A stretch of 64,000 nucleotides of DNA, from NCBI RefSeq assembly GCF_009914755.1, contig NC_060925.1; one strand, given 5' to 3'. The DNA is from the human T2T-CHM13v2.0 reference genome, Homo sapiens. Position numbers and translations under genes: made by a program. Positions 17,393 to 63,390 of the stretch are shown one piece after another. The first letter of the stretch is position 1. Every line of letters begins with the position of its first letter. Below the pieces are notes generated by a model that made no database searches, was not told the DNA's origin, and saw only the letters and a list, made by a program, of their open reading frames with translations.

Positions 17393-17557
<165 letters not shown>

Positions 17558-20500
17558 TTAAGAGGCCTACATTTTTATACCACCAAGATTCTCTTCCTAG
17601 CAGGGATAGTGATTTAGGTGGATATCATTAACTTTTTTTTTAAGGTTAATAGAGCCATTAAAAGTGTATATAATAAAATACTTCTAACAATGTGTGTTAA
17701 AAGTATGGGAAACCTCTGTCAGTAGGTACTATTTGAAACAAAGTGGAAGAATCAAATCAGAAAAGTTTTATTTAATAAATTACTTATATATGGCTCTTAA
17801 GCAAAAATATGAAAAGATTTTACATGCTAGCAATGATCAGTAATATATTGCTAGGGAATGATAAAAATAAAACTGTAGTAAAGTGAGTTTTGCTGTTTAT
17901 AATGTCTTTTCATATGAAGATACAGGACTAATTCCACTTTTAGTAAAAACATGTGTTTGAGTTATATCAGTGAACTCTCATGCAGGGCCAAATCATACCA
18001 TAAGCCTATGATTAAAAGAACAAGATAAGGAATTTGACAAAATTTGAAAATTAGTCAGATTTGATCTGCAAATCCTTCCTCTGATTCCTCAATGCAAACA
18101 ATTACAAAACATATCTATTTCTTTTGAGTGACAGCAAGACAATTACAAATTTTGGTTCAACTTATTCTATGGGAATAACAGAAACCCAAAGATAACCTTC
18201 AGAGTTGTAAAGATAGCTTGAAGTATGTTAAACTTCATGATTATTATTTTAAAAAAATTACTTGTTGGTCTATTAATACATTATTTAGAGGAAAATCTGT
18301 TCTCCAAAGTCCTTTTTAAAGGTCAGGGAATTATCCAACACTTAGGAAAATGACAAAGTATTTATTTTGCCAGGCAGAACATGGTGGCCTTAACATGCTC
18401 ATGCATAGCTCATGCAGTGAATGCTAGTGAGCTTGACTTCCAATCAATGGACACCATTTGTAATGCAGAAATGTAAGCTTTGGAAAAATAAAACATATTT
18501 AAATGATTTAAGATTTAAGTTTGCACTACATGAGATGGAAAGATAATTTTCCCTCAATAGCAAAAACTGAATGTGATGAAAAAATATATTCACATAGGCA
18601 CTAACTCCCTGTCACACTCAGAGTGAGATTAAGTTGACACACTTTAGAAGTAACTATTAAAATGTTAAGGTTTTAAATAAATGTGTGAATGTGTGTGTGT
18701 GTTTGTGTGCACGCGTGCTTGTGTGTATTAAGATGGAACTAAAGAGTAAATGTAAAGAGCCAAAATACATATAACACATACTGGTCCAGTGACTCTGCCC
18801 TTTAGGAGAATGGAAGTTCTGAAATACAAGTTTCAGGTTAGCATTTGTACTGAGCGATCCTGGACAAAATTTGTTGTTTTGGGGTCCTTCTATATAAAAA
18901 CTCTGTCTATAGTTTCTCAAAGTTGGTTGAAATTTTTAAGTCTACATTTTATTTTGAAATGGTAAAAATATAGGCACTTTTTCTAACTTTGATCTCATGG
19001 GAAGAGAGACTAAATTTTGTGATGAGGAAATCAAGAGGTAGCTTAAAAGATGCTTCAGAAATTAGTGGAATCAGTGAACTAAGAGACACTGGTATCAGCT
19101 TAAAATTAGAGAAGTTATTGAAAACTGTTCTCTGCAAGCACTAAGGCTAACAAGTAATCATGTATCTAAAGAACTCTCAATTATATAACTGTTGATTACA
19201 TAGCTTGGATTTCAACTTGTTCCTTCTTCATCTTTCGCTTATTACCTGTCTTCAACCAGTCCTTATCTTTTTTAGCAACTCCTCTGAGGCCAAATAGCAG
19301 TAGACTTAGGTTAAACTCAAGTTAATCTTATGCTTGTTTCTCAATCTAGGGGCTATGGCAAGATCTATTTCAGTAATATGAAAACAAGAGGCATATGTGG
19401 GACAGTGAGGAAACATGCAAAGGCACCTTCAGAGTATCTCACAGACGACTTGTTAGCAATATCACTGTAATTCTACCTAAAAGAAGATGGTCCTCAGAAG
19501 GGAGTTCACCAGTCATTGGCACAGAACAAGGAGCGTCTCAGCTACAACGCTGGTTGTAGCAACCTAGGCAATTGCGTGGTGATCTGGTAAGCTATAACAC
19601 CATAAGGAATATCTGGCCTTTTTGCAGTTTGGTCCTCAATCAGGAAGGGAATTTAACATTCTCAGAGTCTGAGGCCATTCTACATTCAAGTTGCAAAATT
19701 CTCCCCCTTTTTTTTTATTTCTACGACTAATAGGCAAACTATTGATCACTGTAATTTCCCATGTAATTTGCCAACAGGTGAAATAATAAACTTAGATATT
19801 ACCTAATCCACCTGATGGTTATAACTTTCATTGTACATTAACAAATGGATTTTTCTTTTTAAAATATGTCATGCACATTGTTGATAAAAACCTGCAGTCC
19901 CAAGTAAGTGAAAGACTGGCCCTTGAGCACTGATGAGTCTGAGTTTCTGAACCTGTAAATCTCTGGTCTTGAACAGTATGGTCTTTAGGTTACTATGGTA
20001 AAGATCTATTTATGTAGTCAGCAGTTCACCCAGAGACATCTGTGTGTATTACAGTGTAGAGGATATCATTTAATTTTTCGAATTTCTATATACAAATATC
20101 GTTTTGGAAAAAAGGAATAAAATTTGAAACCAAACTCTAAAATGATCTTTTCTGGAATTCTCCATTATGTATCACAGATGAACTTGCTGTTTAAAGCAAA
20201 AAATATTTAAAACATTTATGATCAGTTTGGAGAGTACTTTGACATAGGTCCTAGGTCCTTTTGTATTATGAAAAATCAACTATATCTACATACATTTTTA
20301 ATTAAATTCACTGTGAAACATAACAGTTTGTTTCTTTAAACTCTCTCATTTGCTTCTTTCTAATATAGTGGGGGAAATCAGGCTTTCTAGGATGCTAAAA
20401 CCTGGAGACATTCTTTTGGAATATGTAGACACTTTACTTTTTTCCTTGGGAAAAGGATACAGCCTTGCTAATGCTGAGTTTAGTTCAAAACCCGGAGAGT

Positions 20501-21441
20501 TTTCCTTTAAACAGAAGCAGATAGATTCTTCATGTAAGTTCTTGAAAGAGATAGAAACTATGAATATAAAAAGGCAACGTTGCAGGAAAAATTGTGCTTT
20601 CCTGATCTGGAAAGACTTGACTTCAATAGTGTGTATCACAGGAATTTGTATGCCCTCACTAGGGGCCCTGAGAAGCAAGGAAAAGTAAGCTGTGACATGC
20701 CACATCTGCTCTTGCCTTGTGTGGCCATTTTGCTTCAGATAATAGTTTGAATATGTGGCTATTTATAAGTATACTGGAATTCAATCCAATCTTGTAGGGT
20801 GCATGTCTCTGTATGTACATAGTTTCTTCTTGCTACTCCTAACCCACATAAAATGTGGTGTATCCCTCTAGACTAGTATATGCAACTATTATAGTACTTT
20901 TTCTTTATAGGATTACTTATTTAGTGCCATTTCACCTTTTTCCTTCGTATTCAGATAACATATTTTGGACCTTTGAATCACCAAAATAGTGTCTCTTCCT
21001 GAAAATACATAATTCTGGTCCAAAGAAAATGGTTATTGTTTATTGTGAAAAGATAACTAGGAATGATAAGGCCAAAAAGTCAATCTGCCATTAAGTTTTA
21101 TCTCCCAAGAACAATTATTTCTGGGTACCTAGAAAGAAAAATGACAAATTCTTTAAAAGAGAAAAATTATATTTAAAACCCAACAACAAATAGAAAACCA
21201 TATCTAGAGTGTGTTTTTTTAAATAAACAAATTTAGAAATCTAATTAGCATTCAGCAAGCAGAAGACTGAATTTTTGCTAATATTTGCAAGACTTCAAAC
21301 ACATTTGTAATAGCAATCATTAGAATTCTAAACTTGATATGATTCAGAGCAGGAACAAAGAAATCTGGAAATGACAAGTGATGCTTCACATGCAGCACAT
21401 TACAAGGGAATGGCAGCCAGTAAAGAATCTCAGGCACTCAC

Positions 21442-21478
21442 AGGCTCTTATTAAATTTCTGGGCCAGAGTTGACATTC
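21442..21478 (-). other. KIFAP3: Candidate 37-nt alternative cassette exon B: (R)NVNSGPEI**
   Basis: Acceptor ttttcttctctttctacag|G and donor CCT|gtgagt; splice-site pattern only, no transcript evidence available. Confidence 0.45.
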
Positions 21479-21497
21479 CTGTAGAAAGAGAAGAAAA

Positions 21498-21606
21498 CCA
21501 CCTACCTCTGGCTGTTTGTGAGGCTTAATTAGTGCGTATTTGTAAAGCACTTTGAAATCCTTGGATGAAAAGTGCTGCATAAGTGAAAAGTATCATTATT
21601 TTATTA
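21498..21606 (+). mobile_element. Ancient MIR-family (MIR1_Amn-like) SINE 3' part underlying exon A
   Basis: acctacctc...tgtgaggcttaatta...tttgtaaagcactttgaaatccttggatgaaaagtgct...aagtatcattatt resembles the recalled amniote MIR/L2-type tail. Confidence 0.6.
21506..21574 (-). CDS. KIFAP3: Alternative 69-nt cassette exon A, KAP3B-like C-terminus (S)TFHPRISKCFTNTH* (coding part 21529-21574)
   Basis: Acceptor cttttcacttatgcag, donor GAG|gtaggt, phase compatible; predicts 772 aa, the length and HPRISKCF motif I recall for mouse KAP3B. Confidence 0.75.
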
Positions 21607-21814
21607 AAACGAGATAAAAGCAACACAAGCCTTTTTCTTCTTTTAAATTCCTAGGTCAGCAATATCAATGTAGAGCAAGTAATGAATTTATTAATAAATG
21701 GCTACAAAAAGAATAAATGCAGGCCAAATTATTTTTTCAAAGGCTCATGGAAGTCTTTGACTTGGGAACATTTTAAGAAATAATATTGGCTACACTTTTA
21801 TTCACAACATCCTT

Positions 21815-22270
21815 GACAGGGTCTATCCAGCTCTCTTCTGAACACCTCCAGAAGGAAGTGCTCACTACTTTGTCAAGGCAGTTCATTCCATTTGTGGATA
21901 TGTAAAACTGTTGGAAAGTTCTTTATTACACAGCTCTAAAATCCAGTTCAACTAGTCTTAGAATTACCCTCTGAAACCACACAAGGAGTCCAATTCTTCT
22001 TTGATATGACTGCTTCACAACCCTTGTTTATTCAAGCCTCATTACATGGTCTCTAATCTTTACCATCTCAGTTGCTCTCTAAAACCACTTCCATTTTCTA
22101 GTGTTTGTCTTCAAATGAAGAAGCTAAAATTAACGTGATACTTATGATGTGATCTGAAACCAGTACAGAATAAAAGATCCTATATCTGACTTTACACTAT
22201 TGTAGGCTAAAACTGTATTAATCTTAAACAAAAATTTTAAGAAGACATTATCACAAAGTTGCCTAATATT
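21815..22270 (-). mobile_element. L3/CR1 3' fragment
   Basis: tccagctctcttctgaacacctcca...gctcactact...ggcagttcattccat...ggaaagttcttt. Confidence 0.65.
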
Positions 22271-22869
22271 GACTGCTTATAATTGACTGTGTATATATGT
22301 GTATATATATATAACATTGAGTTATATATAGTTATATAATATTGAGTTATAGTTACATGTAACATTAAGTTTTTTCTGTATATATGTACAGTTGTGTGTA
22401 TACACACACACACACATTCAAAATTTTACTTATAACTACCATGCTAAATTTCATCTTTTTAGTCTGAGTCTGTCTTTAGGAATTCTATTCTTCCCAAGAC
22501 AAAATCATTTATGACTACATATTTATAAATAGGCAGCAGTGATTTTTCTTAACAAACCAGTCTTTGTGATCCATCAGGTAATATTGAAGGCTGGAATTCT
22601 TTTGGAATTGTCAAGTGAAAGAATTTAACATGAGCTGTTATAGGAAGAAACTTTCCAGGATATTATAAAACTGTATGAAATTACTTCTTCATAATTTTTT
22701 GGAATAGTTCATTCTTTTTATCAATTTCTCTAATATATTGATTATAGAATCAAAATCAGTATGTTTATCTTTCTAAGTAGATTGTTAATTGATCATCAGG
22801 GTAATTTCAGCTTAAGTATGATTTGTCATGGGAAATTTAGGTCTATTGTAATAGTGACTCTATATACCA

Positions 22870-36142: not shown

Positions 36143-36474
36143 CAGCAGCCCCGAACCTTTTTGGCACCAGGTACTGGTTGTGTGGAAGAATTTTTCCATA
36201 CATGGGGGAGGAGAGACGATTTTGGGATGAAACTGTTCCACCTCAGATCATCAAGCATTAGTTAGATCCTCATAAGGAGCACACAACATAGATCCCTAGC
36301 ATGCAGAGTTCACAATAGGGTTTGTGCTCCTATAAGAATCTAATGCCGCTGCTCATGCAACAGGAGGTGGAGCTTAGGCAGTAAGGTTTGCTGGCCTGCT
36401 ACTCACCTCCTGCTGTGTGGCCAAGTTCCCAACAGGCCATGGACAGGTACTGGCCTGGGAGTTGGGGACCCCTG
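36143..36474. mobile_element. MER1B hAT MITE
   Basis: TIRs cagcagccccgaac / gttggggacccctg; perfect 8-bp TSD atttagag at 36135-36142 and 36475-36482. Confidence 0.9.
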
Positions 36475-36671: not shown

Positions 36672-39600
36672 AAAGACAACAAAAACTGAAGAAAACAATG
36701 TTTACTTCATGAAGAAACTTTCTGTGGACTTGCAAGGTTAGAATTTTGGGCAGATTTAAAGTTGCAAAGAAACGAAGAAGCAAACTATAGAAAAGGCCCT
36801 CAGATAAAGTCTAAAATTCTGTTTTCATCTTCATCTTTTTTTCACATGCAAACTATTATGTTACAATTTAAGTAGACATAGGTCTATTTGAAAACAATTC
36901 TAAGAGTATAAGCTACATTTTGAAAGTTCAACATTCTAACATTATACCTAATACCTTCTGAAAAGGCCCTGTGAGTGCTGCACCTCTTTCCTTTAAAATG
37001 TTCAAACCACTCCTCTTACCCTCCTCTTGTATTGGGGTAACTAACAACAGGCATTTCCCCAAAAGTGGATCCTCTTTTTATCAGGAGATCCGACTTTACT
37101 GTCCCCAATTCAGAAACAGTCTTCTGAGTTCTCAATACACTTTTGGTTATTGCTTTTATGGTAGTTGTCTAAATCAATAAATATTACATATTTTTTCTTT
37201 ATCTCAACATTTTGATTTTTATGAGGATGAGAATAATTTTTTCTGTGAAATTAGATGGCTAAAACAGTAACTGTGACTTCAATCTTCTGGGAAAATATAA
37301 GCTGATTTCCTTTTTTGATTTATTTTATAAAATTTCATATTTCCATATATAAATTTGACCTAATATAAATATACAATAAAATATATTTATCAATGACTAT
37401 CACCCAAGATGGCCCCCTGAGGGTGAATTTCTTGACAAAGAAGTTGCTAACTTCCAGTTGCCAACCACAAAAACAAAGCAGTAGAAAAGATAAGAGGTGT
37501 AAGTAAAAAATATATTTAACCTGTATTAACTGAATCAGGTAATTAATGCCTCAATTGAGAGGTTTCATTGTAACAAAAAAGAAAATAAATATGATTCTTT
37601 ATGTACTTTACTATGAGGATGCACATATTAATGTATAAAATTCAGCTTGCTTAAATGTGATTTTGAAATTCTATTGATTTATTCAACATATTCATAGTAT
37701 TTCCTTTATGTTTGTAAGGACCCATTTGATAAGATGGTATAGTGTATGTTAACAAGGGATATTTTTACTCTAAGAAGAGCTCTTATAAAGTGAAACTTCA
37801 ATTTTTTGAAATCCTTGAAATTCCCTTAAATTTCCTTAAGTACTGTGGTGTCTTCTCTATAATGAAAACTGAAAAATAATGTTATGACTCATTAAATAAA
37901 CTCAGTAAGTACAAACTTATGTTGAAACTAAACATACAAAATAACTAAAGAAATAACAAACCATTTTATTTTATTTGAGGAGAAAAAAGAAAAAAAGGCT
38001 TGGTCTTTAAAAAGGATTAAAATAAACTCAATTTATGGAGTCTTGGAATCTTCACGGCAGTGCAGACGGACTTCCACTTGCCCTCCCCTGGCCCACCTCC
38101 TGCACACCTTCTCCTCTTAGTTTATTCACATTTTAAATCTTTCTTCCAAGTTTGGCCTGCAACCACTTGACTGGATAAAGTAGGTCACTTGAAAAGGAAG
38201 AAAGCCCAATAAAATGAATTGCAAAGAAAACAAGATTAAACTGATTGTGCTGTTTTCATACATTGTAGCTGAAATTCTGCAAATATGCAGTTGGCTGTGG
38301 TTTGGCATTCAACAGAATGTGATCAGTAAGGAGGAAATTTTATTCTCATTAACTGCTGCAGATTTACTGCAGTGAAAAAGGGCTATGTAACCCAAGATGT
38401 GACAGTACAGAAAGATCAAAGCCATGGACTGGAAACTAAATAAACCCTCTGGCTACTTCCTGCAAGGAAAATTCACTTTGGCAATGTAGAACAGAGCCCA
38501 GTTAAAAACTACTCTCAGTTTTATGAGCTGTCATAGCAGTTCAAGTGGTTTGGACTGGCTGAGTTTATAACATTATATTTCCTTGTTTTTGTCTTAGATA
38601 CTTCTGTAAGCAGTTTTAAAGACGCCCCCCCCCCACCCCTTTAAAAAACACAACAACAAAAAACTAATTTCTTTTGATTGAAACCAAGAAGGTAACCACT
38701 AAACTTATTAACGCAGGTAGGTCTTCATTTGCAGATTCCTTTCTCATTTAATACAGCTTAATATTTTATTCTTAGATTTATTTGGTAATATAAATTTACT
38801 TAATAATTCATCTACAATCTGTATAATTCCTATTCAGAATAAGTGCAAATCAGTTTACAGAGCCCATATGGCTCATATCTGAGGAGTAAGCTATTTGTAA
38901 TAGCACATCTGTAAAGACTATGGGCAATATGGAGATTATGGGAATTAATATTACATTTAAAATTACATTTGAAAACCTGTAGGCCCTAGGTTTTAGCTGT
39001 TTCTTAAAAAACAAATATCTTAGAAAAAATATCTAATATTTCTAATATAAGAAATCTAACAACTGTTCATAAATAGTTAAATTACATTGTTAAATCAATC
39101 AAGACAACAATAGGCTAGATTAAATCTACCTTAAATTAGAAAATATCCCTGAGTTAAGGAGTAAGCTCAATATCATTACACTCATATTTAAAGGAAATAA
39201 AAGATGACATGCTCTATTTCTCTCCCTTATTTTTTTAAGGGGGAATAGTGATGCTTATTAACCAATTATATACAATTTTGTTATTCTCATTATAATATGA
39301 AGGAGCAAGCCTTTATGACGGTAATTTGCATTATATTACCTTAAAAATCATTTTTGTTTTTTACAATAAGAGCATTTCTAGGTCAAATATGTCATAAGAA
39401 CCGTCATCCTTGCTTAAAGACTTTCTTTCTTTCCATTTAAATTTACAACTAATTTCTATCTGTAAAGCCAACAAAAATGCAATACATGTGAAAAGTATAT
39501 GACGTTTAACACTAGATAATCACTCTTAAATGGTGATGATATAATTAACTTGCCAGACACAACTGGATTGGCTTCTGTGTCATTTTTTCTAGTACAAAGC

Positions 39601-39712
39601 TGTACCATAATTGACATGTTAACATTTTTAAAGGTTCCAGTCATATTCGGGTTACGTTTTAAATTTATAGACTCAATTATGCTGAATTTCTTCTACTAAG
39701 TCAAAGTCCTAA

Positions 39713-41260
39713 TGTCACAGGATCCTTGGGGTGTTGCTTTGCCACCCAGAAACCATTGTGGCTGGCGGCACCTTCTCCCTGAGTATTGTTTGCGCCCGCT
39801 GGGCTCGTTCTGCCCACTAGGCCCGATAGGCTGTGCTCAGCTTGAGCTACCAACCTGGATCCCACACCTGCCAAGGGTTAGCCAGGTGTGGAGCGGCGAG
39901 GGTTGTGTGGGTGACCAAGCGCAGGGTCTGGTCACCACGCACAGCAGGCATGCTGGCTGACTGGCTACTATGGCAGGGTGGTTAGCTCCAGGCACTGGTA
40001 CAGGTGCTGGCTCTGTGTGAGGCTGCAGATGGACCAGATGTACCGCACGCAGCTTCTGCTCTGAGCAACTGCGTCTGGATGAGGGAAACACAGAGGCGCC
40101 CAGAAACCTGGAGAAACTGGGAACCGCAGAGCCCCACAGAGGGTGTCACATCCCTGGCTCAGGAGCAACTAGGTCTGGGCTCTTGGAAGAGCCACAGCTC
40201 TTCCCTCCTTCTCGTTTCCCACAACATGGTGAGTGGGGGCGACGTGTTTCAGCCCCGTTTGTGTTACAGCTCTTTGAGTCCTGCCATTCAGGTCCCAGGT
40301 TCTTGTTTCCCATCCAGGAAGAATGAGGTTAAGTGGACAACTGGAGGGTAAGCAAAGGGGAAGAGGAGCTCCATTGAGTGACAGAACAGCTCTCAGGAGA
40401 CCCAAAGTAGTAGCTCCTTTCTGCAGGCGGCCTGACGAGTGTCCAGCTCTCAGCAGAGAGGAGATCTGCAGTGGGTAGCTCCTTACAGCAAGCAGGTAAT
40501 CCCCACGTCTGTATGAGTCTGGCTGAGCCTGGGGTTTTTCTAGGCTCAGAAGGGAGGAAGTGCATGCTGATTGGTCCATGGCTGGCCATGGACAGGGCCA
40601 GAAAAAGTACAAGTTCTCACTTTGGGTGGGAGACTCCACCTGGAACCGGCAGCCTGGTCCCCAGGCTCAGGCCATCCCTGGTTAGAAGGTGGGGTTTCAC
40701 TGGGGATTCACTCCTTTTTGCCCAGGAGCCTGCCTGTTGCCATCAACATGCCATCCAGGGTGCCCAGGCAGCCCATACTAAGCCACCTTCAGCACCCCCT
40801 GGCCTCCCTCCCTGAGCTTGTAGGTGCCCAAAGCTTCAGAGGGGGCTGAGGCAGTGGGGGGCGGGGGGGGCTGGTGTGTCAGTACCGCCCCAAGTGCAGG
40901 CACACCCAGCCAGGTCGTGACAGTGCCTGGGCTTGGCTTCAACTTTGCTGCAAAATTGGAGCAGGCACCGGCAACAGGGAGAGGCCAGGGAGTGGAAGCA
41001 GGCACTTCCGAACCTGCAGGGGCAGGGGGCCTTCCCCAGGCCCCCAAGAGCACAGGGATGACCTGGTCTCAAGCTGTGGCTGGGCGGCTGCAGCTGTGCC
41101 CAGGAGTGTGGGGCTCCTGGCCTGCCAACTTGGCAGGGGGCAGGGCTCATGCCTCTTCCCAGCCTGACAGCTCTGTGTAGCTCACAGTGTCAGCTGCGCC
41201 TCCCCAACTGCAGCTGGCATCCCTGCAGCAGCTGCTCCAGATGGGCCACTGCTGCCATCA
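39713..41260 (-). mobile_element. MER52-type ERV1 solo LTR (~1.55 kb, GC-rich)
   Basis: Minus strand begins TGATGGCAGCAGTGGCCCATCTGGAGC and ends CACCCCAAGGATCCTGTGACA; 4-bp TSD ctaa at 39709-39712 and 41261-41264. Confidence 0.88.
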
Positions 41261-49519: not shown

Positions 49520-49715
49520 TTGTGATCTCCATTTTTTAAATACAGAAAATGTGACTTCATAAGTTAATTTAAAATCAAACAAACATGCCCTTGAAAAGAT
49601 TGAGGGTTTTTTCCCCCCTCTTAATGAAAAAGAAGAGAAATGGAGAGTGAAGAGGATTTTAGCTTTCCAAAAGCAACAGATACTACACATTAGATTTTTC
49701 TTGGAAAACTGTTTA

Positions 49716-49979
<264 letters not shown>

Positions 49980-59979: not shown

Positions 59980-60100
59980 TGCCATAATTATCAACATCTT
60001 ACAAATGAGAAAATGAGGCCCTGAACACTGAAGTAACTTGATCCAGGGTACACAGCTGGCTGTGGCTACTACAGCACTGTAAGCCTCGGGCCAGCAATGT
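59980..60100 (-). mobile_element. MIR
   Basis: ttacaaatgagaaaatgaggccctgaacactgaagtaacttgatccagggtacacagct. Confidence 0.7.
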
Positions 60101-63199: not shown

Positions 63200-63390
63200 T
63201 ACTGCATAATATAAAGAACATTGGATTAGGAGTCAGGAGACCTGGGCTCTGGTTCTAGCTCTGCTACTAACTGAAGTATGCAACCTTCTAAAGGTATTCT
63301 AATCTCTCTTGGTCTCAGATTCTTCATTTGTAAAATGAAACAAAACTAAGACTTACTTAAGCTCTAACATTCTAAATAAAAACCTATGAT
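63200..63390 (+). mobile_element. MIR/MIR3
   Basis: aaagaacattggattaggagtcaggagacctgggctctgg...tctcagattcttcatttgtaaaatg. Confidence 0.8.

What the first reader, a model, noticed from the sequence alone, without database searches (positions are those of the whole stretch)
21389..21574. Two stop-containing cassette exons 27 nt apart: a predicted mutually exclusive C-terminal switch for KAP3
Seen: exon A (21574-21506, donor GAG|gtaggt) is followed after only 27 nt by a strong acceptor (ttttcttctctttctacag) and exon B (21478-21442, donor CCT|gtgagt), which encodes R-NVNSGPEI then TAA TAA. The plausible branch points for B (CACTAAT, CCTCAC) lie inside exon A, and UGCAUG sits at 21389-21394 just downstream. 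Known: 27 nt is below the minimum spliceable intron, and stops under ~50 nt from the last junction escape NMD. Inference: KAP3 could have three stable tails (792 aa Tyr-rich, 772 aa, ~766 aa), chosen by steric exclusion and possibly RBFOX, altering kinesin-2 cargo binding or Tyr phosphorylation. I do not know of exon B being described.
Basis: partly seen in the sequence, partly recalled or inferred. Interest (0 to 1): 0.8.

Follow-up and report, generated by a model that had tools for sequence, protein, structure and literature searches.

The report
KAP3B exon plus unproven neighbour pseudo-exon
The first of the two "exons" is the already known brain-enriched KAP3B exon of KIFAP3, and the second is a very good-looking but unproven splice-site pair sitting in the same ancient repeat element, so a third KAP3 protein tail remains a prediction.

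Summary
The sequence facts hold. Exon A (21574-21506), a 27-nt spacer and candidate exon B (21478-21442) are as described, TGCATG lies at 21394-21389, and the predicted proteins are 792, 772 and 766 aa. Exon A is annotated and matches the published short isoform KAP3B. A human RNA-seq and RT-PCR study reported a brain-specific, NMD-escaping KIFAP3 cassette exon, and mouse "exon 20" behaves alike.

My addition is that 21601-21454 is one copy of an old dispersed repeat. A profile built from ten other genomic copies hits it at E=1.5e-23. Its consensus carries the A donor motif and, about 31 nt later, a pyrimidine-AG. The 27-nt juxtaposition is therefore inherited.

B's site pair ranks 2 of 40,928 by a crude matrix. 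Several things argue against B:
- it is in none of nine RefSeq transcripts;
- no paper mentions it;
- it is 37 nt long;
- its only consensus branch points lie 41 and 51 nt upstream, inside exon A, behind 4-5 AGs.

No junction reads or other mammal's genome could be checked. B is most likely an unused or trace pseudo-exon, but this stays open.

The parts
49717..49816 (-). Penultimate coding exon of KIFAP3. It ends ..CCT GGC AG|gtaaac, leaving two bases of a codon.
   Evidence: hub annotation.
21454..21601 (-). One copy of an old dispersed repeat (core-SINE/MIR-like; the name is recalled). It lies so that its consensus donor-like and acceptor-like motifs are on the gene's sense strand. It spans A's acceptor, exon A, the spacer and the first 25 nt of B.
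   Evidence: A profile of ten other genomic copies hits here at E=1.5e-23. Single-sequence nhmmer hit 10 of 14 loci. Own-genome search.
21506..21574 (-). Exon A, the annotated alternative exon (KAP3B type). It has a weak acceptor (rank 127 of 2,966) and a strong donor GAG|gtaggt (rank 5 of 2,343). The stop TAA is at 21531-21529.
   Evidence: hub annotation; literature.
21479..21505 (-). 27-nt spacer, made of A's donor followed by a purine-free 15-nt pyrimidine run (21497-21483) and ACAG. It is either B's polypyrimidine tract or a PTB/TIA-type intronic element for exon A.
   Evidence: The repeat consensus has about 31 nt here.
21442..21478 (-). Candidate exon B, 37 nt, reading R-NVNSGPEI then TAA TAA (21453-21448). 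Its use is unproven.
   Evidence: It is not in the hub's RefSeq exon list.
21436..21441 (-). B's donor intron part, gtgagt. The exonic side, CCT, is non-consensus.
   Evidence: rank 29 of 2,343. Only 1 of 10 repeat copies has GT here.
21519..21529 (-). The only two yUnAy branch-point candidates for B, with the A at 21519 and at 21529. Both lie inside exon A, 41 and 51 nt upstream of B, with 4 and 5 AGs in between.
   Evidence: rule from PMC1431707.
21389..21394 (-). TGCATG (RBFOX-type hexamer), at +48 from B's donor and +112 from A's donor.
   Evidence: It is the only copy between 20000 and 23000.
18782..18818 (-). Annotated alternative exon, also 37 nt. It gives a frameshifted 794-aa tail and confounds any +37-nt RT-PCR product.
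   Evidence: hub annotation.
17393..17498 (-). Coding part of the last exon, encoding the canonical Tyr-rich tail.

Best explanation
One old SINE-type repeat in the last large intron of KIFAP3 supplies both features.

**Exon A.** Its 5' part became exon A, the known brain-enriched KAP3B exon. That exon ends the protein at 772 aa and escapes NMD.

**Candidate B.** The repeat's consensus also carries a pyrimidine-AG about 30 nt after the donor motif. An acceptor-like site therefore sits 27 nt behind exon A by descent, not by design. B is most likely an unused or trace-level pseudo-exon, for four reasons:
- it is only 37 nt long;
- its donor has a poor exonic side;
- it has no consensus branch point in the usual window;
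- U1 snRNP on A's very strong donor would sit between B's only consensus branch points and its pyrimidine tract.

**The flanking motifs.** If the pyrimidine tract and TGCATG are functional, I infer that they act as downstream intronic regulators of exon A (PTB/TIA-type and RBFOX-type).

**Shown versus inferred.** Shown here are the anatomy, the frames, the repeat origin, A's annotation and the published brain-specific use. Inferred are B's silence and the regulator role.
For: **Exon A is known**
- It is in RefSeq (hub table). The 772 aa agree with KAP3B as the 'short isoform' (passages).
- Goldstein 2016 (PMC4878813; passages and sections 9-10) reports a novel brain-specific KIFAP3 cassette exon.
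  - It was validated by RT-PCR in 14 tissues.
  - It is PhastCons-conserved.
  - Its stop lies within 55 nt of the last junction.
- Mouse Kifap3 exon 20 gives two C-terminal isoforms. Kifap3 is also listed among CNS-regulated splicing events.

**Repeat origin**
- An own-genome search found 5 other copies at 75-82% identity.
- nhmmer hit 10 of 14 loci.
- A profile of the ten other copies hits 21601-21454 at E=1.5e-23. In that alignment consensus ggtaggt lies over A's donor and consensus ..tatag over B's acceptor.

**Against B being used**
- It is in none of the nine RefSeq transcripts. Exon 18818-18782, with acceptor rank 579 and donor rank 196, is annotated.
- There is no yUnAy adenosine in B's 21-nt AG-free zone. 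The nearest is 41 nt upstream, with an AG 16 nt after it. The three used acceptors that I compared each have one at 19-31 nt, inside their AG-free zone.
- Gooding 2006 allows bypass only of AGs within about 12-15 nt of the branch point.
- 37 of 39 strong site pairs in the window are not annotated exons; the other two are exon 49816-49717 and B itself.
- The mouse RT-PCR is described as included versus skipped forms.
Against: - B's acceptor is the best-scoring of 2,966 AGs, and the pair ranks 2 of 40,928.
- The tract has 1 purine in 15 positions (21498-21484). In the ten other copies the homologous stretches have 3 of 12 or more. This hints at selection for pyrimidines.
- TGCATG lies 48 nt after B's donor, with a chance of 0.026.
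- Goldstein 2016 states that RT-PCR between the flanking exons showed additional KIFAP3 splice variants, which were recovered at higher sensitivity. I could not see S4 Fig or S1 Table, so one of these could be B.
- The repeat homology of B itself is weak. Pooled identity is 0.44 over spacer plus B, against 0.68 over exon A. A profile of the downstream part alone did not hit B.
- My matrix is recalled and crude.
- No junction data and no other mammalian genome were available.
Confidence: 0.6

Rival explanations
1. B is a real, tissue-restricted micro-exon, for example in neurons, muscle, testis or photoreceptors. It is spliced from exon 49717 using a branch point inside exon A, and it is mutually exclusive with A. 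It gives a stable 766-aa KAP3 that lacks the Tyr-rich tail, and it is switched on by RBFOX and/or by loss of PTBP1.
For: - It has top-ranked splice signals.
- Two yUnAy branch points lie 41 and 51 nt upstream.
- Its stop lies 9 nt from the last junction.
- TGCATG lies at +48.
- A pyrimidine tract rich in UCUU/CUCU fits the pattern named in the title and abstract of PMC4317164 (search listing).
- Goldstein 2016 mentions unexplained additional RT-PCR variants.
Against: - It is absent from nine RefSeq transcripts (hub table).
- 0 papers hold the peptide string. KIFAP3 did not occur in the 5 of 6 supplementary files of PMC4317164 that could be searched.
- There are 4-5 AGs between the branch points and the tract.
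- A's donor, rank 5 of 2,343, lies between them.
- Its signals are inherited from a repeat.
- 0 of the 120 listed KAP3 proteins have this tail. That search also found 0 with the known A tail, so it has no power.
Confidence: 0.2
2. The B signals are used, but not as exon B. One option is that B's donor serves as an alternative 5' splice site of exon A. That exon would be 21574-21442, 133 nt, giving the same 772-aa protein with its stop 87 nt from the last junction, so it would be NMD-prone. The other option is that a branch point at 21519 leads to use of the earlier TAG|G. That exon would be 21501-21442, 60 nt and in frame, giving an 812-aa protein.
For: - Lengths and frames were computed.
- The first AG that is far enough downstream of the branch point is preferred in step 2 of splicing (PMC1431707). 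The AG at 21503 lies 16 nt after 21519.
- Goldstein 2016 mentions additional variants.
Against: - A's own donor is far stronger than B's (6.26 against 3.81).
- No pyrimidine tract precedes the TAG at 21503.
- Neither form is in RefSeq (hub table).
Confidence: 0.08
3. B's acceptor opens an alternative last exon that ends at an intronic poly(A) site. That transcript would give the same 766-aa protein without needing B's donor.
For: AATAAA lies at 21044-21039, about 400 nt after B, and the acceptor is strong.
Against: - Only one hexamer is present and I saw no evident downstream element.
- No such transcript end is annotated (hub table).
- The same branch-point problem applies.
Confidence: 0.03

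Closest known systems
KAP3A/KAP3B isoforms of KIFAP3 (Yamazaki et al. 1996; the paper was not held, so it is recalled and cited through the reference list seen)
   Same: Exon A gives the short C-terminal variant. It is 772 aa here. It is used as 'KAP3B', and the mouse alternative exon 20 appears.
   Different: Nothing differs for A. B would be a further, undescribed tail.
Exonised antisense MIR elements, for example the FGB intron 1 MIR pseudo-exon activated by a point mutation (PMC4615370, passages)
   Same: An exon and a pseudo-exon are carved out of an old SINE whose consensus offers splice-like motifs. A silent copy can need only small changes to be used.
   Different: Here one part is a conserved physiological exon. 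I could not compare B with the FGB exon because no sequence was in hand. The MIR name is recalled and was not tested against Dfam.
Sterically enforced mutually exclusive exons (alpha-tropomyosin exons 2/3; recalled, and mentioned as a distant-branch-point case in PMC1431707)
   Same: The gap between two exons is too short, and the branch point too badly placed, for them to be joined.
   Different: In tropomyosin both exons are proven and regulated. Here the second exon is unproven, and its branch points lie upstream of the first exon's donor.
RBFOX/PTBP1-regulated micro-exons of 51 nt or less (PMC4317164; title and start of abstract only) and the c-src N1 downstream control sequence (recalled)
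   Same: A short exon, a CU-rich tract and a downstream UGCAUG. The same layout also fits control of exon A from its downstream intron.
   Different: No binding, expression or conservation data for this locus were available.
Intronic pseudo-exons (general concept; review PMC8819188 seen in search listings only)
   Same: Good splice-site pairs that are not used. 37 of 39 strong pairs in this window are not annotated exons; the other two are exon 49816-49717 and B itself.
   Different: B scores higher than nearly all of them and abuts a real exon.

Membership tests
Known KAP3B-type alternative C-terminal exon | An annotated cassette exon between the last two canonical exons that ends the frame early and gives about 772 aa. 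| tested here: met
   The hub table lists 21506-21574.
Known KAP3B-type alternative C-terminal exon | The same exon is alternatively used in mouse. | tested here: inconclusive
   Mouse exon 20 gives two C-terminal isoforms. No mouse sequence was available to prove orthology.
Transposable-element (SINE) exonisation | The exon lies inside a copy of a dispersed repeat. | tested here: met
   5 other genomic copies; 10 of 14 loci by nhmmer; a profile without the KIFAP3 copy hits 21601-21454 at E=1.5e-23.
Transposable-element (SINE) exonisation | The splice sites map to motifs of the repeat consensus. | tested here: met
   Consensus ggtaggt lies over A's donor, and GT is kept in 4 of 10 copies. Consensus tatag lies over B's acceptor, and AG is kept in 2 of 10. 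B's donor GT is kept in 1 of 10.
Transposable-element (SINE) exonisation | The repeat is identified as MIR by a curated repeat library. | not testable with these tools
   No Dfam or RepeatMasker is available. The name rests on my recall of the core motifs.
Sterically mutually exclusive exon pair | The intervening intron is too short, or the branch point is misplaced. | tested here: met
   The spacer is 27 nt, and the only yUnAy adenosines lie upstream of A's donor.
Sterically mutually exclusive exon pair | Both exons are actually spliced into mRNA, never together. | not testable with these tools
   A is used (annotation). For B there are no junction data, and it is absent from RefSeq.
RBFOX/PTBP1-controlled micro-exon | An exon of 51 nt or less with UGCAUG in the proximal downstream intron. 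| tested here: met
   B is 37 nt and TGCATG lies at +48. The chance of at least one within 60 nt is 0.026.
RBFOX/PTBP1-controlled micro-exon | Tissue-specific inclusion, and conservation of the exon and the motif. | not testable with these tools
   No RNA-seq, CLIP or other vertebrate genomes were available. KIFAP3 was not found in the 5 of 6 searchable supplements of PMC4317164.
NMD-immune premature stop (50-55-nt rule) | The stop lies less than about 50-55 nt upstream of the last exon junction. | tested here: met
   23 nt for A, 9 nt for B and 46 nt for B plus the 37-nt exon. A plus the 37-nt exon gives 60 nt.
Functional 3' splice site | A consensus branch point within the AG-free zone or about 15 nt upstream of it. 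| tested here: inconclusive
   The AG-free zone is 21 nt and holds no yUnAy. The nearest (21519) lies 16 nt before the AG at 21503, just outside the rule of PMC1431707.

The most novel reading that the evidence does not exclude
B is a genuine, switch-like micro-exon that is repressed in most cells. The repression would come from PTBP1 on its CU tract and from U1 on A's donor. B would be released in a narrow cell type such as mature neurons, photoreceptors or spermatids. One exonised SINE would then encode two mutually exclusive, NMD-immune stop exons, so that KAP3 has a 766-aa tail in addition to the 792-, 772- and 794-aa forms. Each form would differ in the Tyr-rich end that is a kinase substrate and a possible cargo-binding surface.
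Probability: 0.1. Interest if true: 0.55.

Novelty: new member of a known kind. Interest (0 to 1): 0.27.

Why it matters
**Biology.** KAP3 is the adaptor subunit of heterotrimeric kinesin-2, which works in cilia, axonal transport and APC transport. The long isoform KAP3A is listed among the substrates of the tyrosine kinase PTK6. That the phosphorylated residues lie in the C-terminal tail is my recall. Splice choices that swap the tail could therefore change regulation or cargo choice.

**What is new.** The solid new point is modest. The KAP3B-specific exon and its neighbour signals come from one old SINE copy. My search for KIFAP3 with 'exoniz' found 0 papers. This explains why a superb-looking acceptor sits 27 nt behind a real exon.

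**Practical point.** A +37-nt RT-PCR band cannot prove B, because the annotated exon 18818-18782 is also 37 nt.

**If B were used.** It would be a neat natural case of two sterically exclusive stop exons born from one transposon.

Tried and rejected
- **Self-BLAST of 21300-21700 within the window.** There was no significant second copy; the best other hit had E=0.027. The repeat was only seen genome-wide.
- **Own-genome search with 21360-21560.** It found only itself, so B's part has no close relatives.
- **Profile of the repeat part downstream of the donor.** It did not hit B. It did hit 63342-63215 (E=5.2e-6) and 59985-60053 (E=0.013).
- **RNA fold of 21400-21600.** The z-score was +0.18, so there is no special structure masking or presenting the sites.
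- **Rfam scan of 20500-22500.** It gave 3 matches at E 0.69-0.74, all far below gathering scores, so no RNA gene is present.
- **Processed pseudogenes as fossils of spliced isoforms.** None exist for the 3' exons.
- **Protein database search.**
  - 783 relatives were found and 120 were listed.
  - 0 had a B tail, but 0 had the known A tail either, because clustering hides isoforms.
  - The search is therefore uninformative.
- **Literature.**
  - 'NVNSGPEI' gave 0 papers.
  - KIFAP3 with 'exoniz' gave 0 papers.
  - Two loosely framed searches returned lists without KIFAP3 splicing content.
  - A KIFAP3 mention in PMC8152425 concerns an alternative-promoter event.
- **Closed or unavailable sources.**
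S1 Table and S4 Fig, which may name the exact KIFAP3 exons, were not seen.
  - Yamazaki 1996 is not held.
- **Recursive splicing at B.** I rejected this by eye. Joining exon 49717 to B recreates ..CAG|GAATGT, which is not a donor.

Full report
**1. The observation**

- Exon A runs 21574-21506, after ..cttatgcag, and ends GAG|gtaggt.
- The next 27 bases (21505-21479) are A's donor, a 15-base pyrimidine run (21497-21483) and ACAG.
- Candidate exon B is 21478-21442 (37 nt) and is followed by gtgagt.
- TGCATG lies at 21394-21389.

The upstream coding exon 49816-49717 ends with two bases of a codon. The last exon starts at 17498.
- In that phase A reads S-TFHPRISKCFTNTH-stop.
- B reads R-NVNSGPEI-stop-stop.

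A script that joined the exons by coordinate gave the following:

| Splice form | Protein | Stop to last junction |
|---|---|---|
| Skipping | 792 aa | stop in last exon |
| A | 772 aa | 23 nt |
| B | 766 aa | 9 nt |
| Annotated exon 18818-18782 (also 37 nt) | 794 aa, frameshifted tail | stop in last exon |

**2. Is it more than chance?**

I scored every AG and GT on the sense strand of the 46,955 transcribed bases. The matrix was simple and its frequencies were recalled, so it is a crude stand-in for MaxEntScan.

| Site | Rank |
|---|---|
| B acceptor | 1 of 2,966 AGs |
| B donor | 29 of 2,343 GTs |
| A donor | 5 of 2,343 GTs |
| A acceptor | 127 of 2,966 AGs |
| Annotated 37-nt exon | 579 (acceptor) and 196 (donor) |

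- As a pair, B ranks 2 of 40,928 acceptor-donor pairs 25-300 nt apart.
- 39 pairs are at least as good as the weakest constitutive sites here. Of these, 37 are not annotated exons; the other two are exon 49816-49717 and B itself. Site strength is thus a poor predictor.
- TGCATG occurs 21 times in 46,955 nt. The chance of at least one within 60 nt is 0.026, and within 120 nt it is 0.052.

**3. What exon A is**

The hub's RefSeq table lists 21506-21574 as an exon of other transcripts.
- KAP3B is described as the short isoform of KAP3A and is used as a reagent in several papers (passages).
- Goldstein et al. 2016 (PMC4878813; passages and sections 9 and 10) found a then-unannotated, brain-specific cassette exon in human KIFAP3 in Body Map RNA-seq.
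  - They validated it by RT-PCR with flanking-exon primers in 14 tissues.
  - They noted PhastCons conservation like that of annotated exons.
  - They placed its stop within 55 nt of the last junction, and so named it a likely NMD escaper.
- That description fits A. The paper's text gives no coordinates, and I could not open its figures or supplements, so the identification with A is an inference.
- In mouse, 'Kifap3 exon 20' is an alternative exon that gives two C-terminal isoforms. It was measured by RT-PCR in two sets of tissues, with the products sequenced.
- Kifap3 is listed among CNS-regulated splicing events.

The 'switch' between the 792-aa and 772-aa tails is therefore already known.

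**4. A repeat underlies both**

- A search of the window's own genome with 21400-21600 found five other places at 75-82% identity. Two of those copies used as queries found more.
- Single-sequence nhmmer hit 10 of the 14 loci tried, spanning window 21606 down to 21475 at most.
- A profile built only from the ten other copies hits the window once, at 21601-21454, with E=1.5e-23.
- In that alignment the consensus ..tgtgAggtaggt.. lies over A's donor. About 31 consensus positions later..cccattgtatag lies over B's acceptor. The alignment runs 25 nt into B with posterior values of about 0.5-0.9.
- The donor-then-pyrimidine-AG arrangement is therefore ancestral to the repeat. The KIFAP3 copy has lost four bases there.
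- The core motifs match my memory of the MIR/core-SINE family in antisense orientation. No repeat library was available to test that name.

Caveats:
- Homology is strong over exon A (pooled identity 0.68). It is weak over spacer plus B (0.44) and at background downstream (0.34).
- A profile of the downstream part alone did not find B.
- Among the ten copies, GT at A's donor is kept in 4, AG at B's acceptor in 2, and GT at B's donor in 1.
- The KIFAP3 tract has 1 purine in 15 positions, while the homologous stretches of the other copies have 3 of 12 or more. This may reflect selection for pyrimidines.

**5. Would B be spliced?**

B's AG-free zone is only 21 nt and holds no yUnAy adenosine.
- The two that exist (21519 and 21529) lie 41 and 51 nt upstream, inside exon A. 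Four and five AG dinucleotides lie in between, the last one 16 nt after 21519.
- The three used acceptors that I compared (A, 49816 and 17498) each have a yUnAy adenosine 19-31 nt upstream, inside their AG-free zone.
- Gooding et al. 2006 (PMC1431707, passages) state that the 3' site is found by a search for the first AG after the branch point. Only AGs within about 12-15 nt are bypassed.
- B is therefore at best borderline. A branch at 21519 might instead select TAG|G at 21502, which would give a 60-nt in-frame exon and 812 aa.

Three further points count against B. The second and third are inference from general knowledge:
- A's strong donor lies between these branch points and the tract.
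- B is a micro-exon.
- B's donor has C and T at -2 and -1.

**6. Direct evidence on B**

There is none either way.
- B is in none of the nine RefSeq transcripts (hub table).
- The peptide string occurs in 0 papers. KIFAP3 with 'exoniz' gave 0 papers.
- Of the 11 papers holding KIFAP3 and 'alternative exon', 8 were listed. I read KIFAP3 passages in 7, and none mentions a second stop exon.
- KIFAP3 is not in the 5 of 6 searchable supplements of the micro-exon survey PMC4317164.
- There are no processed pseudogenes to serve as fossils.
- Of 783 KAP3 relatives, 120 were listed. None has the B tail, but none has the known A tail either, so that test has no power.
- The one open lead is Goldstein's remark that RT-PCR showed additional KIFAP3 variants, which were recovered at higher sensitivity (S4 Fig). 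These may be the now-annotated 18818-18782 exon, or B, or both.

**7. Best reading**

- A single old SINE gave KIFAP3 its KAP3B exon and, by descent, a neighbouring pseudo-exon that is probably unused or used only in traces. My confidence is about 0.6.
- If the pyrimidine tract (+9 to +23 of A's donor) and TGCATG (+112) are under selection, the economical reading is that they regulate the brain-enriched exon A from its downstream intron.
- That layout resembles the c-src N1 downstream control sequence (recalled) and the RBFOX/PTBP1 theme of PMC4317164 (title and start of abstract). This step is inferred.

Rivals:
- B is a real tissue-restricted micro-exon (0.2).
- The B signals are used in another way, as an alternative donor of A or through the earlier AG (0.08).
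- B's acceptor opens an alternative last exon ending near the AATAAA at 21044-21039 (0.03).

**8. Novelty and interest**

- The A/skip switch is known.
- The repeat origin of A and of the B signals is a small addition of a known kind, namely transposon exonisation (passages in PMC2879366 and PMC4615370).
- B itself is an untested prediction with specific reasons for doubt.
- Interest is about 0.27. If B proved to be a regulated exon, it would deserve about 0.55.

Noticed in passing
18782-18818 (-): The RefSeq-annotated alternative exon is exactly 37 nt, like candidate B. Its splice scores are weak (acceptor rank 579 of 2,966, donor rank 196 of 2,343). It shifts the frame to give a 794-aa protein that ends inside the last exon.
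   Followed up: partly
63215-63342 (-) and 59985-60053 (+): These are two further copies of the core part of the same repeat family in the window, found with the profile of the downstream half (E=5.2e-6 and 0.013).
   Followed up: no
39868-40107 (-) and 36407-36454 (-): These unannotated acceptor-donor pairs score as high as B (ranks 1 and 3 of 40,928). They lie beside or inside the RefSeq 'enhancer' 36970-39653 and near the 'silencer' 40756-40923.
   Followed up: no
17393-17395 (-), and proteins: The human frame ends ..GGA TCT TGA TAA. Most other mammalian KAP3 proteins listed end ..GSR, whereas the two Pan proteins end ..GS like human. The human stop may be a recent change of an Arg codon, with the old stop directly behind it.
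   Followed up: no
49714-49717 (-), and proteins: Reading through the donor of exon 49717 gives AGg taa, that is one Arg and then a stop. 4 mammalian gene models of the 120 listed, and several bird and reptile models, end in exactly this way. They are probably truncated or intron-retaining models.
   Followed up: no
P0015 (Phodopus roborovskii model): Its tail after ..SFPG (SKCYFNNT..) resembles the human exon A frame (..ISKCFTNTH). This hints that rodents use the homologous repeat-derived exon with a different boundary or stop.
   Followed up: no
21600-21605 (-): An AATAAA hexamer lies 26 nt before exon A's acceptor, inside the A/T-rich end of the repeat copy. It also makes A's polypyrimidine tract poor.
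   Followed up: no
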